Shown here piece by piece: positions 20,364 to 27,900 of a DNA stretch of 64,000 nt. The DNA is from the human T2T-CHM13v2.0 reference genome, Homo sapiens. The translations under genes and the position numbers were made by a program. Under the pieces are notes generated by a model that saw nothing but the letters and a program-made list of their open reading frames with translations, ran no database searches and had not been told where the DNA came from. The DNA lies in NCBI RefSeq assembly GCF_009914755.1, contig NC_060932.1, one strand, 5' to 3'. The first letter of the stretch is position 1. Every line of letters begins with the position of its first letter.

Positions 20364-20463
20364 GTTTAGTTCTTTGATTATACAAGTAAATACTTCTCCA
20401 TTAAAAGTAATTTATACTGTTGTAGAAAAATTGGAGGTATAAATACACTTAGAAGTTTGAAGA

Positions 20464-20582
20464 GCTCATCTTCCCTGGTCTATGTCCTCTGCTCCTGGAG
20501 ACCCAGCCTCTGTGGCCCTGTGACCTGCAGGTATTGGGAGATCCCCAGCTAGACGTCATGTCCCCTGAGATGCCTAGAAATG
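20464..20582 (+). pseudogene. Retroposed fragment of exon 1 of a ZNF91/ZNF93-family KRAB-ZNF gene
   Basis: TGTCCTCTGCTCCTGGAGACCCAGCCTCTGTGGCCCTGTGACCTGCAGGTATTGGGAGATCCCCAGCTA...GCCTAGAAATG matches the recalled first exon of this family up to the exon-ending ATG. Confidence 0.75.
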
Positions 20583-20632
20583 GTCTCTTCCCAGGGTGAG
20601 AGAGGAATGAAAACTTAAAGGAAAGAAACTCT

Positions 20633-23600
20633 GGGCTTCCAAGATGGCCAAATAGGAACAGCTCCAGTCTGCAGCTCCCAGCGTGATCGATGCAGAAGAT
20701 GGGTGATTTCTGCATTTCCAACTGACGTACCTGGTTCATCTCACTGGGACTGTTTGGACAGTGGGTGCAGCCCACGGAGGGCAAGCTGAAGCAGGGCGGG
20801 GAATCACCTCACCTGGGAAGCACAAGGGGTCAGGGGATTTCCCTTTCATAGCCGATGGAAGCCATGACAGACTACCTGGAAAAACGGGGCACTCCTGCCC
20901 AAATACTGTGCTTTTCCCAAGGTCTTAGCAATGGGCAGACAAGGCAATTCTCTCCCGTGCCTGGCTCGGCAGGTCCCATGCTCATGGAGCCTTGCTCACT
21001 GCTAGCGTAGCAGTCTGAGATCCATCTCCTATGCCTGGCTGGGGGAGGGGCATCTGTCATTGCTGAGGCTTGAGTAGGTAAACAAAGTGGCTCTGAAGCT
21101 CAAACTAGGCAGAGCCCACTGCAGCTCAACAAGGCCCACTGCCTCTAGACTTCACCTCTGTGGGCAGGGCATAGCTGAACAAAAGGCAGCAGACAACTTC
21201 TTCAGACTTAAACGTCCCTGTCTGACAGCTCTGAAGAGAGCAGTGGTTCCCCCAGCACAGCGCTTGAGCTCTGAGAACAGACAGACTGCCTCCTCAAGTG
21301 GGTCCCTGACCTCCGTGTAGCCTAACTGGGAGACACCTCCCAGTAGGGGCCAACAGACACCTCATATAGGGGGCTGCCCCTTAGGGACGAAGCTTCCAGA
21401 GGAAGGATCAGGCAGCAATATTTACTGTTCTGCAATATTTGCTGTTCTGCAGCCTCCACTTGTGATACCCAGGAAAACAGTGTCTGGAGTGGACCTCCAG
21501 CAAATTCCAACAGATCTGCAGCTGAGGGACCTGATAGTTAGAAGGAAAACTAACAAACAGAAAGGAATAGCATCAACATCAACAAAAAGGTCATCTACAC
21601 AAAAACCCCATCTGTAGGTCACCAATCTCAAAGACCAAAGGTAGATAAAACCACAAAGATGGGGAGAAACCAGAGCAGAAAAGCTGAAAATTCTAAAAAT
21701 CAGAGTGCCTCTTCTCCAAAGGATTGCAGCTCCTTGCCAGCAACGGAACAAAGCTGGACGGAGAATGACTTTGACGAGTTGACAGAAGTAGGCTTCAGAA
21801 GGTCGGTAATAACAAACTTCTCCGAGCTAAAGGAGGATGTTCGAACCCATTGCAAGGAAGCTAAAAACCTTGAAAAAAGATTAGATGAATGGCTAACTAG
21901 AATAAACAGTGTAGAGAAGTCCTTAAATGACCTGATGGAGCTGAAAACCATCACAAGCTTCAATAGCCAATTCAATCAAGTGGAAGAAACGGTACCAGTG
22001 ATTGAAGATCAAATTAATGAAATAAAGTGAGAAGACAAGGTTAGAGATAAAAGAGTAAAAAGAAATGAACAAAGCCTCCAAGAAATACGGGACTATGTGA
22101 AAAGACCAAATCTGTTTGATTGGTGTACCTGAAAGTGATGGGGAGAATGGAACCAAGTTGGAAAACACTCTTCAGGATATTATCCAGGAGAACTTCTCCA
22201 ACCTAGAAAGGCAGGCCAATATTCAAATTCAAGAAATACAGAGAACATCACAAAGATACTCCTCGAGAAGAGCAACCCTAAGACACATAATTGTCAGATT
22301 CACCAAGGTTGAAATGAAGGAAAAAGTCTTAAAGGCAGCCGGAGAGAAAGGTCGAGTTACCCACAAAGGGAAGCCCATCAGACTAACAGCAGATCTCTCG
22401 GCAGAAACCTGACAAGTCAGAAGAGAGTGGGGGCCAATATTCAATATTCTTAAAGAAAAGAATTTTCAACCCAGAATTTCATATCCAGCCAAACTAAGCT
22501 TCATAAGTGAAGGAGAAATAAAATCATTTACAGACAAAAAAATGCTGAGAGATTTTGTAACCACCAGGCCTGCCTTACAAGAGCTCCTGAAGGAAGCACT
22601 AAACATGAAAGGAAACAACCAGTACCAGCCACTGCAAAAACATAACAAATTGTAAAGACCATCGATGCTAGGAAGAAACTGCATCAATTAACGGGCAAAA
22701 TAACCAGTGAACATCATAATGACAGGATCAAATTCACACATAACAATATTAACCTTAAATGTAAATGGGCTAAATGCCCCAATTAAAAGACACAGATTGG
22801 CAAATTGGATAAAGAGTCAAGACCCATCAGTGCGCTGTATTCAGGAGACCCATCTCAGGAGCAAAGATGCACATAGGCTCAAAATAAAGGGATGGAGGAA
22901 GATCTACCAAGCAAATGGAAAACAAAAAAAAAAGCAGGGGTTGCAATCCTAGTCTCTGATAAAACAGACTTTAAACCAACAAAGATCAACAGAGACAAAG
23001 AAGGCCATTACATAATGTTAAAGGGATCAATTCAACAAGAAGAGCTAACTATCATAAATATATATGCACCCAATACAGGAGTATCCAGATTCATAAAGCA
23101 AGTCCTTAAAGACCTACAAAGAGACTTAGGCTCCCACACAATAATAATGGGAGACTTTAACACCCCACTGTCAGTATTAGACAGATCAATGAGACAGAAG
23201 GCTAAAAAGGATATCCAGGACTTGAACTCAGCTCTGCAACAAGCAGACCTAATAGACATCTACAGAACTCTCCACCCCAAATCAACAGAATATACATTCT
23301 TCTCAGCACCACATTGCACTTATTCTAAAATTGACAACATAATTGGAAGTAAAGCACTCCTCAGCAAATGTAAAAGAACAGAAATCACAACAAACTGTCT
23401 CTCAGATCACAGTGCAATCAAACTAGAACTCAGGATTAAGAAACTCGCTCAAAACCACACAACTACATGGAAACTGAACAACTTGCTCCTGAGTGACTAC
23501 TGGTTAAATAATGAAATGAAGGCAGAAACAAAGATGTTCTTTGAGACCAATGAGAACAAAGACACAATGTACCAGAATCTCTGGGGCACATTTAAAGCAG

Positions 23601-26600: not shown

Positions 26601-26751
26601 AGGGATAACATTAGGAGAAATACCTAATGGAAATGATGAGTTGATGGGTGCAGCAAACCAACATGGCACATGTATATCTATGTATCAAACCTGCACGTTG
26701 TGCACATGTACCCTAGAACTTGAAGTATAAAAAAAGAAATTAGAAAAAAAA
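20633..26751 (+). mobile_element. Full-length L1PA6-like LINE-1, inactive
   Basis: CAAGATGGCC YY1 start; ~1 kb 5'UTR; ORF1 21659-22655 and ORF2 22719-26527 (EN GDFN/SDH, RT FADD, Cys-rich end), both broken by stops and frameshifts; 3'UTR and A-tail. Confidence 0.97.
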
Positions 26752-26930
26752 GATAATATGACAGGCTAGGAAGAAAGGCAGGTGGAAAATTATTGTCTAA
26801 TGAGCACAAAGCTTTTGTTTAGAATCATGAAAAGTTTCTGGAAACAGATAATGGCATGGTTATACAACACTGTGAATGTATTTACTGCCACCGAATTGTA
26901 CAATTAAAATGGTTAAAATAGTTTTTAAAA
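26752..26930 (+). mobile_element. L1MB 3'-end fragment, putative 3' transduction
   Basis: ATGAAAAGTTTCTGGAAACAGAT...GAATTGTACAATTAAAATGGTTAAAAT, then an A-run and the TSD. Confidence 0.7.
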
Positions 26931-27900
26931 AAAAGTTTGAAGAAGAGAACTATTATCACCTAAAATCTCTCTTCTCCCCAAGATAACCACACTAACATTT
27001 TGGTGTATTCCTTTCCAGGCCTTTCTTTGTAGACATATAAATATAAACTGCATTTTTAAATAAAATGGAGTTGATGATACAAGTGTTTTATTACTCTGCT
27101 TTGTTCTCTTAACATTTTATGATAAATATTTTATTGCCATTAAGAATGCTTCCAAAACACATTATTTATAGCTGAACAATATTTTTTGGATATTCGGGCT
27201 GTTTATAATTTTTCACTCTGATATATGGTGCTGGGATGAAGAGCCTTAAACAGAAGTCTTTGATCACATTTCTGATTACTTCCTTTAGAAGACACTTAAA
27301 AGTAGAATTACTGGGACAAATGATATAAATATTTTAATGAAAATTTTTATTGCCAAATAGTTTCCAGAAATTGACCAATTTACAGTTCTATCTGCATCTG
27401 TCAGTGCAGACACATTGCAAAAACAAGTCAGTATTTTAAATGCTTTTCAGAGTAGCAGGAGGAAATGGTATTTCATTTTTTTTGACTCCTATTTCTTTGA
27501 TTAATGGTTCTATTGACCAATTCTTAATTTGTTGACCGTTTGGATTTCTTCTTTTAAGAACTGCTTGTTCATTTTCTTTGATAATTTTTAAGTTGGTATG
27601 TTAGTATTTTTTATTGACTGGATATAATTAGGAGCTGCTTATTTGTCATGCTCATTGCAAATATTTTTGCCTGTTTTCATTTTACTTTTTACAATTTTTT
27701 ACAATTTTTTATTTTTAAAGGCCAGTCAAATTTAGCAGTGGGTGTCATTTTGCTTTTAACTTGTATTATACAGGGATTTTGTAAATATAGCTGGTTTGGG
27801 GACTTTTCTTTGTTTTACATGGTTAAATCTAACAAGAGTTACCTTTGTGATTCCTCCCATGATCTCATGCTTATAAAGTTCTCTCCATCCCAAGATCAGT
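26931..27900 (-). mobile_element. Ancient L1ME 3' region (continues from ~20380-20463)
   Basis: AAGATAACCACACTAACATTTTGGTGTATTCCTTTCCAG and AGTAGAATTACTGGGACAAA motifs. Confidence 0.65.

What the first reader, a model, noticed from the sequence alone, without database searches (positions are those of the whole stretch)
20451..26943. Full-length L1 with both 5' and 3' transductions inside one TSD
Seen: no convincing TSD at the L1 ends. Instead AGAAGTTTGAAGA (20451-20463, after TT, an L1 endonuclease-like site) recurs as AAAAGTTTGAAGA (26931-26943, 12/13 match) after an A-run. An old L1ME element reads through when 20464-26930 is removed. Inference: the retrotransposed RNA was ~6.47 kb, made of a 169-bp foreign leader, the L1PA6 and ~180 bp of downstream flank. 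Established: 3' transduction is common, 5' transduction is rare and needs an upstream host promoter, so both together are unusual and fingerprint the source locus.
Basis: partly seen in the sequence, partly recalled or inferred. Interest (0 to 1): 0.85.

Follow-up and report, generated by a model that had tools for sequence, protein, structure and literature searches.

The report
L1 carrying spliced KZNF exons and a chr20 tag
An old, dead full-length L1 retrotransposon sits inside one target-site duplication together with a leader made of spliced exons from a chromosome 19 zinc-finger gene and a tail copied from chromosome 20, a rare but recently described kind of L1 chimera.

Summary
The 12/13 direct repeat is real at the stated coordinates. 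It abuts insert boundaries that I fixed independently; a shared word of 11 nt or more occurred in 5 of 19870 random window pairs.

- **3' flank:** 26748-26926 is a true 3' transduction. It is 91% identical to a unique old-L1 3' end at chr20:51297187-51297361 and is polyadenylated 18 nt after an ATTAAA.
- **5' leader:** it is not contiguous flank. It consists of an untemplated G, then exon 1 of a KRAB zinc-finger gene (chr19:22190911-22191029), spliced GT/AG to a 50-nt piece that lies 6.07 kb downstream in intron 1 (chr19:22197100-22197149). The L1's own G-run start follows directly.
- **Source:** the two tags come from different chromosomes, and neither parent site holds an L1PA in CHM13.

Best model (about 0.55): a chr20 L1 made a tagged copy in the KZNF intron. 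That copy was transcribed from the KZNF promoter, spliced to a cryptic acceptor, and inserted on chr8. The main rival is a template switch.

The class is published (Law and Burns 2026: 17 cases, one from ZNF681). This locus is not in their Table S5. Two further unlisted KZNF-exon-1/L1 chimeras turned up on chr6 and chr4.

The parts
20451..20463 (+). Target-site duplication, copy 1 (AGAAGTTTGAAGA). It is preceded by TT, which gives an L1 endonuclease-like TT|AGAA site.
   Evidence: a shared word of 11 nt or more in 5 of 19870 random window pairs.
20464..20464 (+). Single G that is neither in TSD copy 2 (an A follows there) nor in chr19 (T). It is probably untemplated or cap-derived.
   Evidence: Law and Burns Table S5 lists similar 5' untemplated G/GGG.
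20465..20582 (+). Exon 1 of a chr19 KRAB zinc-finger gene (chr19:22190911-22191029 +). It ends at the start codon ATG, where chr19 continues with GTGAGA, a splice donor.
   Evidence: 90% identity, against 81-86% for the other 38 scored paralog and retrocopy hits.. (108 of 118 positions).
20583..20632 (+). Piece of intron 1 of the same gene (chr19:22197100-22197149 +), 6.07 kb downstream of exon 1. In chr19 it is preceded by ...gattctAG, a splice acceptor. It ends in TT|AAAGGAAAGAAACTCT, which is shaped like the TSD of a lost source L1.
   Evidence: (94% identity, best of 8 of 8 scored).
20580..20618 (+). Short upstream reading frame. The KZNF ATG is followed by 11 more codons and a TAA, all before the L1 begins.
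   Evidence: Read directly.
20633..26729 (+). Full-length L1PA element (about 6.1 kb) that begins with its own G-run (GGGCTTCCAAGATGG). Its reading frames are broken; the longest ATG frames are 123, 259, 121 and 392 aa.
   Evidence: 5' end; frames; homology to other copies runs to 26729.
26723..26747 (+). A-rich tail of the source L1 (first A stretch). Its right edge blends into A-rich chr20 sequence, so the border is uncertain by about 20 nt.
26748..26926 (+). 3' transduced tag, the 3' end of an old L1M copied from chr20:51297187-51297361 +. ATTAAA lies at 26903-26908 and the A-run starts 18 nt later. In chr20 the sequence runs on past this point.
   Evidence: (92% identity, next best 83%; 40 of 810 candidates scored), (90.9% over 175).
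26927..26934 (+). Terminal A-run (second A stretch), the remnant of the new poly(A) tail. Its last As overlap TSD copy 2.
26931..26943 (+). Target-site duplication, copy 2 (AAAAGTTTGAAGA).

Best explanation
One L1 retrotransposition event placed a three-part RNA at a TT|AGAA site on chr8. The RNA ran, 5' to 3': capped KZNF exon 1, a 50-nt intron-1 piece, a full-length L1 with its A tail, and a 175-nt tag from chr20 followed by poly(A). I am about 0.9 confident of this part. The most likely history has two steps. (1) An L1 that once sat inside an old L1M 3' end at about chr20:51.2972 Mb read through its own weak poly(A) signal to the ATTAAA of that L1M. It then inserted, tag included, in sense orientation into the 20-kb intron 1 of the KZNF gene at chr19:22.19 Mb, at a TT|AAAG site next to position 22197150. 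(2) That intronic copy was transcribed from the KZNF promoter. Exon 1 was spliced to a cryptic acceptor 50 nt upstream of the L1, the RNA was polyadenylated again after the tag's ATTAAA, and its own proteins inserted it on chr8. Both intermediates were never fixed or were later lost. Shown: the sequence relationships, the splice junction, the TSD, the poly(A) signal, and the absence of both sources in CHM13. Inferred: the order of events and the lost intermediates. The element is now dead.
For: - **Single event:** the TSD flanks the whole composite and abuts independently mapped boundaries.
- **Spliced leader:** the two leader pieces each have their best genome hit in one gene, on the same strand, 6.07 kb apart, joined exactly at GT...AG. 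The second piece lies in intron 1, since KRAB-A is at ~22211250, KRAB-B at 22211878 and the zinc-finger exon at ~22226800.
- **True source gene:** leader divergence from chr19 is 10/118 plus 3/50. This is no greater than the tag's divergence from its unique chr20 parent, 16/175.
- **5'-complete leader:** it starts within 3-4 nt of the 5' ends of two other independent retrocopies of the family (chr4 chimera at 22190907, chr9 pseudogene at 22190914, ours at 22190911, all in chr19 coordinates). It also carries an extra G.
- **Cis model over template switch:** the piece in front of the L1 ends in TT|AAAG plus 16 nt, the shape of a source-element TSD. The background rate for such a motif is 1.3-4.9% of positions. 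A second chimera on chr6 shows the same build: exon 1, then a 77-nt piece found ~1-2 kb downstream of exon 1 in several family members (best 88%), ending in TT|AAAAAGATGTGTTTA, then the L1. In none of the four KZNF/L1 chimeras (chr8, chr6, chr4, and published chr3) is exon 1 followed by the KRAB-A exon of the normal mRNA. The two processed pseudogenes do have it.
- **Precedent:** RAP1GDS1 exon 2 is spliced to a cryptic acceptor 15 bp upstream of an intronic L1PA2 that still exists (PMC13174262, section read). Serial 3' transductions are reported (PMC4859970, passage).
Against: - CHM13 has no sense L1PA at the chr19 site. There is only an antisense old L1 at 22198427-22202413, and chr19 runs straight on as GATAGCAG.
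- CHM13 has no L1PA within 10 kb upstream of the chr20 parent. Two lost intermediates must therefore be assumed.
- No sibling copy carries the leader, the leader/L1 junction or the tag.
- The endonuclease-motif argument is post hoc and rests on two loci.
- The chr20 boundary of the tag shows no clear endonuclease site.
- The order of the two steps is inferred, not shown.
- No other primate genome could be examined.
Confidence: 0.55

Rival explanations
1. Template switch at the 5' end. An L1 RNA from a lost chr20 source, already carrying the 3' tag, was reverse transcribed on chr8. When the enzyme reached the capped 5' end of the L1 RNA, it jumped to an internal position of a spliced KZNF transcript and copied that to its cap.
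For: Only one lost L1 is needed. The L1 part is complete to its G-run, so the jump would occur at the end of the template. The leader is spliced RNA that is complete at its 5' end. There is at most 1-2 nt of overlap at the junction.
Against: The landing point would have to fall 50 nt into a non-canonical intron-1 exon rather than in the normal exon 1/KRAB-A mRNA. The same pattern recurs at chr6 and chr4. The piece ends in a TT|AAAG + 16 nt shape, which this model leaves to chance. Law and Burns regard template switching as 'not favored' where splice junctions are present. They also note that U6-type chimeras usually carry 5'-truncated L1, whereas this L1 is full-length.
Confidence: 0.22
2. Template switch at the 3' end. 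The source was a lost L1 in the chr19 KZNF intron. Reverse transcription on chr8 started on an unrelated polyadenylated chr20 RNA that ended in the old L1M 3' end, then switched to the poly(A) tail of the spliced KZNF/L1 RNA.
For: Only one lost L1 is needed. The border between the L1 tail and the tag is A-rich on both sides, which would ease a switch. [quoted passage not shown]
Against: It needs a chr20 transcript for which there is no evidence here. Ordinary 3' transduction explains the same layout and is frequent (PMC4859970). The tag starts next to an A-rich tail, as expected for read-through from a source L1.
Confidence: 0.08
3. Reverse order. A spliced KZNF/L1 RNA from chr19 first inserted at chr20. 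That copy was then transcribed from a promoter upstream of the leader, read through into the chr20 flank, and inserted on chr8.
For: It uses the same two lost intermediates as the best model. It explains both tags.
Against: The leader carries no promoter of its own, and the L1 promoter would start at the L1, so the leader would be lost. An upstream chr20 start plus a 5' truncation would have to land, by chance, at the KZNF start site shared with other retrocopies, and with an extra G. The chr20 site shows no leader sequence.
Confidence: 0.07
4. Not one event. The leader, the L1 and the tag are separate neighbouring insertions, and the 11-13 nt repeat is chance.
For: No multi-species alignment could be made to show that all parts arrived together. 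The terminal A-run is short, at 8 A.
Against: The repeat is very unlikely by chance (5 of 19870) and sits exactly at the outer ends of the two foreign pieces. The L1 proper has no repeat of its own. The tag ends 18 nt after ATTAAA in an A-run, while its chr20 parent runs on. The leader and the tag are about equally diverged from their parents.
Confidence: 0.03

Closest known systems
mRNA/lncRNA 5' exon-LINE-1 chimeras ('second class of 5' transduction'), Law and Burns, Cell Genomics 2026 (PMC13174262; abstract, sections 13 and 14 and Table S5 read)
   Same: First exons of a host gene lie in sense orientation in front of a nearly full-length L1. There is a splice junction in the leader and a TSD with endonuclease site and poly(A) around the whole. 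In most of their cases no source L1 survives in the donor gene. One of their 17 cases uses exon 1 of ZNF681, a paralog of the donor here.
   Different: This chr8 locus is not among the 17 rows; 'chr8' occurs 0 times in Table S5 (all three parts read). It also carries a 3' tag that maps to a different chromosome from the leader.
RAP1GDS1/L1PA2 chimeras (same paper, section 14)
   Same: An upstream exon is spliced to a cryptic acceptor a few nucleotides upstream of an intronic L1 (15 bp there, 50 nt here). The short intron piece is carried along in front of the L1.
   Different: There the source L1 still exists, lacks a working promoter, and left four copies. Here no source survives in CHM13, the L1 5' UTR is complete, and no sibling was found.
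Classical L1 3' transduction, including serial transduction (PMC4859970, passages read)
   Same: There are two A stretches, a unique parental sequence, a downstream poly(A) signal in use, and a TSD outside the tag.
   Different: The parental chr20 site has no L1 next to it in CHM13.
SVA_F1 (MAST2 exon 1 spliced into SVA); PMC4859970 passage, and PMC6139936 seen as a search listing only
   Same: A host first exon is acquired by splicing and then mobilised as a new 5' end.
   Different: SVA_F1 is a non-autonomous element that founded a subfamily. Here the element is an autonomous L1 present as a single copy.
U6/L1 and other template-switch chimeras (as summarised in PMC13174262)
   Same: Two RNAs are joined within one TSD.
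   Different: Those usually join a complete small RNA to a 5'-truncated L1. Here the L1 is full-length and the partner is the spliced 5' part of an mRNA.

Membership tests
L1 target-primed insertion | Target-site duplication flanking the insert | tested here: met
   11 nt exact and 12 of 13 overall, at 20451-63 and 26931-43. Chance rate 5 of 19870.
L1 target-primed insertion | Endonuclease-type site (TT|AAAA-like) at the 5' edge of the TSD | tested here: met
   TT|AGAA at 20449-20454. The consensus is recalled; similar sites are listed in Table S5.
L1 target-primed insertion | Poly(A) at the 3' end | tested here: met
   8-A run at 26927-34, partly shared with the TSD. It is short, as expected for an old copy.
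L1 3' transduction | Two A stretches with unique non-L1 sequence between them | tested here: met
   A-rich stretch at 26723-47, tag at 26748-26926, A-run at 26927-34. The criterion is from PMC4859970.
L1 3' transduction | Tag maps to one parental locus and ends at a poly(A) signal, while the parent runs on | tested here: met
   chr20:51297187-51297361 at 90.9% over 175, next best 83%. ATTAAA lies 18 nt before the A-run, and chr20 continues with its own L1M tail.
L1 3' transduction | A source L1 directly upstream of the parental sequence | tested here: not met
   No L1PA lies within 10 kb upstream in CHM13; only the old L1M itself and an Alu are there. Other haplotypes and species were not testable.
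Classical (unspliced) L1 5' transduction | Leader is one contiguous stretch of the donor genome, ending at the source L1 | tested here: not met
   The leader maps to two chr19 blocks 6.07 kb apart, joined at GT/AG.
Spliced host-exon/L1 chimera (Law and Burns 2026) | Leader corresponds to the first exon(s) of a gene, in sense orientation, starting at the transcript start | tested here: met
   Exon 1 of the KZNF gene is on the same strand. Its 5' end lies within 3-4 nt of two other retrocopies' 5' ends.
Spliced host-exon/L1 chimera (Law and Burns 2026) | Splice junction at annotated or canonical donor and acceptor | tested here: met
   ATG|GTGAGA donor and TCTAG| acceptor in chr19. The same donor is used in 4 of 4 other retrocopies examined.
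Spliced host-exon/L1 chimera (Law and Burns 2026) | Leader and L1 arrive at the same time in a multi-species alignment | not testable with these tools
   No primate genomes are held.
Spliced host-exon/L1 chimera (Law and Burns 2026) | Near full-length L1 | tested here: met
   The L1 spans 20633-26729 and begins with its G-run. 20 of 29 related copies read [C/T][G/A]TTCCAAGA at that place.
L1PA6 subfamily | Diagnostic positions against subfamily consensus sequences | not testable with these tools
   No repeat library was available. The only data are identities to the 39 best other copies: 90-92% over the first 300 nt and 94-97% over the last 300 nt. Divergence from the parents is about 8.5%.
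U6/L1-type template-switch chimera | Partner RNA joined at its 3' end to a usually 5'-truncated L1 | tested here: not met
   The L1 is full-length, and the partner is the 5' part of an mRNA cut 50 nt into a cryptic exon.

The most novel reading that the evidence does not exclude
The chr19/chr7 KRAB zinc-finger gene cluster, the family that supplies L1 repressors, has been a recurrent launch pad for L1. Full-length L1s that landed in the long first introns were repeatedly driven by KZNF promoters through splicing of exon 1 to cryptic acceptors. This left at least four independent chimeras with different spacers and different L1 5' ends (chr3, published; chr4, chr6 and chr8, not listed). The chr8 copy also records a two-step lineage, chr20 to chr19 to chr8. 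If so, promoters active where L1 silencing is being set up gave L1 a systematic alternative route to expression.
Probability: 0.3. Interest if true: 0.6.

Novelty: new member of a known kind. Interest (0 to 1): 0.45.

Why it matters
For L1, 5' additions were long held to be 'almost non-existent' (PMC4859970). A 2026 catalogue lists only 17 mRNA/lncRNA cases. This locus adds an unlisted case in which both ends are tagged, so two ancestral source sites can be named to the base even though neither holds an L1 today. Together with the chr6 and chr4 elements and the published ZNF681 case, it suggests that first exons of the KZNF cluster were captured by L1 several times. That gives a concrete set of loci for testing whether cis-splicing from intronic L1s or template switching makes these chimeras. 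The element itself is dead, and nothing here suggests it affects SFRP1.

Tried and rejected
- **L1ME read-through:** genome searches with the left flank (20366-20463), the right flank (26931-27130) and 27131-27520 found only the loci themselves, or two weak hits. BLAST with 7-nt words against seven old-L1 loci, two weak-hit loci and the window's own L1 placed only 27189-27616 on antisense ORF2. The continuity claim stays open.
- **KRAB exons:** the first pattern scan for KRAB-A found nothing. The second found only KRAB-B, with too-strict patterns for the rest. Looser patterns found KRAB-A and the zinc-finger exon.
- **Siblings:** none carries the leader (40 of 90 candidates scored), the leader/L1 junction (8 of 8) or the tag (40 of 810).
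- **chr4 spacer:** queried the wrong stretch because of my coordinate slip on a minus-strand locus. It showed only that the sequence behind the chr4 leader is a high-copy repeat (371 candidates). The corrected query hit only itself, so the origin of the 35-nt chr4 spacer is unknown.
- **Loci on the minus strand:** they are stored unturned, so rows L004-L006 in alignment A1 and L021-L024 in A3 are on the wrong strand and were ignored.
- **Paper searches:** the phrase '5 transduction' does not match the printed 5' form (0 occurrences even in PMC13174262), so I make no claim about absence from print beyond Table S5.
- **Second splice at the L1 junction:** rejected, because chr19 and its paralogs have no GT there.
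- **Supplements not readable:** the PDF figures S7-S9 of PMC13174262.
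Full report
**What is in the sequence**

AGAAGTTTGAAGA lies at 20451-20463, directly after TT. AAAAGTTTGAAGA lies at 26931-26943, directly after an A-run at 26927-26934. Eleven bases are identical in a row. As a control I drew random pairs of 33-nt windows at the same spacing in this window. A shared word of 11 nt or more occurred in 5 of 19870 pairs. The repeat also sits exactly at boundaries that I found by other means, described below. The flanks hit only themselves in the genome. 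Sensitive BLAST showed only that the right flank from 27189 onward is an old L1 ORF2 in antisense.

**The L1**

The first 300 nt after 20635 match 39 other scored copies at 90-92% (40 of 4852 candidates scored). I lined up the 29 fetched copies with their upstream flanks.
- All 29 align from CCAAGATGG onward.
- 20 of 29 read [C/T][G/A]TTCCAAGA, usually behind a short G run.

The window reads GGGCTTCCAAGATGG, so the L1 starts with its own G-run at 20633-35 and is full-length. Homology to other copies runs to at least 26729 (94-97% for the 39 other scored copies). The reading frames are broken; the longest ATG frames are 123, 259, 121 and 392 aa. The label L1PA6 could not be tested without a repeat library.

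**The 3' tag**

The stretch 26753-26930 has one outstanding match in the genome, chr20:51297195-51297361 at 92%. The next best hits are 83% or less and belong to an old L1M 3'-end family (40 of 810 candidates scored).
- BLAST gives 90.9% identity over 175 nt for 26748-26922.
- On chr20 the piece lies in context, with old L1 ORF2 upstream, an Alu, and then the L1M 3' end.
- chr20 runs on past the point where the window turns into an A-run.
- ATTAAA lies at 26903-26908, and the A-run starts 18 nt later.

This is the anatomy of a 3' transduction, with two A stretches and a downstream poly(A) signal in use. The criteria are from PMC4859970, passages read. There is no L1PA within 10 kb upstream of the chr20 parent in CHM13.

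**The 5' leader**

Positions 20465-20584 match first exons of the KRAB zinc-finger gene cluster on chr19 and chr7. The best match is chr19:22190911-22191031 (+) at 90%, against 81-86% for the other 38 scored hits (40 of 90 scored). Homology ends at ...GAAATG, where chr19 and its paralogs continue with GTGAGAG, a splice donor.

The remaining 50 nt (20583-20632) match chr19:22197100-22197149 (+) at 94%. This is the best of 8 of 8 scored hits. It lies 6.07 kb downstream on the same strand and is preceded in chr19 by ...gtgattctAG.

The gene continues with KRAB-A at about 22211250, KRAB-B at 22211878 and the zinc-finger exon at about 22226800-22227700. The 50-nt piece therefore lies in a 20-kb intron 1. 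The leader is a spliced RNA fragment, not a contiguous upstream flank.

Three further points:
- The first base of the insert, G at 20464, belongs neither to the TSD nor to chr19.
- The KZNF start codon opens a 12-codon frame that stops before the L1.
- Chr19 runs straight on after the 50-nt piece, with no L1 and no GT donor. The only L1 nearby is an old antisense one.

**Dating and donor identity**

The leader differs from chr19 at 10 of 118 and 3 of 50 aligned bases. The tag differs from chr20 at 16 of 175. That is about 8.5% overall, similar at both ends. This fits one time of origin, and it fits the chr19:22.19 Mb gene being the true donor rather than merely the nearest surviving paralog. 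From recalled neutral rates, the age is roughly 20-30 million years.

**How it arose**

The two tags come from different chromosomes, so a single source locus cannot explain both. I favour a two-step history (0.55).
1. A lost L1 on chr20 made a tagged copy in intron 1 of the KZNF gene.
2. That lost copy was transcribed from the KZNF promoter.
3. Exon 1 was spliced to a cryptic acceptor 50 nt upstream of the L1.
4. The RNA was polyadenylated again after the tag's ATTAAA.
5. It inserted on chr8.

The evidence beyond parsimony is as follows.
- **TSD shape:** the 50-nt piece ends in TT|AAAGGAAAGAAACTCT, the shape of a source-element TSD. Such a motif at 10-20 nt occurs at 1.3-4.9% of positions, depending on how strictly it is defined.
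- **5' end:** the leader starts within 3-4 nt of the 5' ends of two other independent retrocopies of the family.
- **Recurrence:** the same architecture appears elsewhere (next section).
- **Precedent:** the RAP1GDS1/L1PA2 case, with its source still extant, works in exactly this way (PMC13174262).

Against this model, two intermediates must have been lost, no sibling exists, and the motif argument is post hoc.

The main rival (0.22) is a template switch from the 5' end of a chr20-derived L1 RNA onto a spliced KZNF transcript. Lesser rivals are a switch at the 3' end (0.08), the reverse order of the two steps (0.07), and unrelated neighbouring insertions (0.03).

**Other copies of the same idea**

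Four hits lie outside the KZNF clusters. I fetched all four.
- **chr9 and chr12:** two are ordinary processed pseudogenes, with exon 1, KRAB-A and KRAB-B spliced together (chr9:35.168 Mb, chr12:57.936 Mb).
- **chr6:25.0726 Mb:** this has exon 1, then a 77-nt piece, then an L1 5' end. The 77-nt piece is found in several KZNF genes about 1-2 kb downstream of their exon 1 (best 88%; for example chr19:22774047 behind the exon-1 hit at 22772981). It ends in TT|AAAAAGATGTGTTTA.
- **chr4:155.452 Mb:** this has exon 1, then 35 nt of unknown origin, then a high-copy repeat (371 candidates) that looks like an older L1 5' UTR by eye and from recall.

All four use the same exon-1 donor.

**What is known**

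Law and Burns (Cell Genomics 2026, PMC13174262; I read the abstract, sections 13 and 14, and all three parts of Table S5) report 17 hg38 L1 insertions with 5' mRNA or lncRNA sequence. Most have near full-length L1 in sense orientation, and six end exactly at splice donors. One is a ZNF681 exon 1 chimera on chr3.
- Table S5 has no chr8 row ('chr8' occurs 0 times).
- It has no row near the chr6 or chr4 loci.
- By eye, the printed ZNF681 leader is homologous to the present one and starts about 12 nt further in.
- Their PDF figures could not be read.
- Hancks and Kazazian (PMC4859970, passages) call L1 5' transductions 'almost non-existent' and note serial 3' transductions.
- That KZNFs of this cluster repress L1PA elements I saw only as search listings and otherwise recall.

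**Verdict**

The leader is a spliced piece of a KZNF transcript, and the two tags name two different ancestral sites. It is a new member of a recently described kind, with a modest extra: a double tag from two chromosomes, and hints that KZNF first exons were captured by L1 repeatedly.

Noticed in passing
L068 = chr6:25072500-25073000 (+) of the same genome: A second L1 chimera with a KZNF exon 1 leader. It has exon 1 (starting about 28 nt further upstream than the chr8 leader), a 77-nt piece found in intron 1 of several KZNF genes (best 88%), and then an L1 5' end. The piece ends in TT|AAAAAGATGTGTTTA. It is not in Table S5 of Law and Burns 2026.
   Followed up: partly
L070 = chr4:155451700-155452300 (- strand): A third chimera. 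KZNF exon 1 ends at the same donor, followed by 35 nt of unknown origin and then a high-copy repeat (371 candidates) that resembles an older L1 5' UTR by recall. It is not in Table S5.
   Followed up: partly
L069 = chr9:35168000-35168600 (-) and L071 = chr12:57935550-57936100 (+): Processed pseudogenes of KZNF genes of the same family, with exon 1, KRAB-A and KRAB-B joined without introns. They served as controls for what a normal spliced KZNF mRNA looks like.
   Followed up: partly
L010 1400-1490 = chr20:~51297095-51297185: The old L1M on chr20 carries a short tandem multiplication of an AGAAAGTAGAATAGAA-like unit just upstream of the stretch that was transduced. This blurs the left border of the tag by about 20 nt.
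   Followed up: no
window 20008-20365: A (CA)n run followed by a full Alu with an A tail lies directly upstream of the left flank. It separates that flank from whatever old repeat it belongs to.
   Followed up: no
window 20633-21381: NCBI's soft mask starts at 21382, so about 750 nt of the L1 5' UTR, and the leader, are unmasked. An unmasked stretch here is still a repeat.
   Followed up: no
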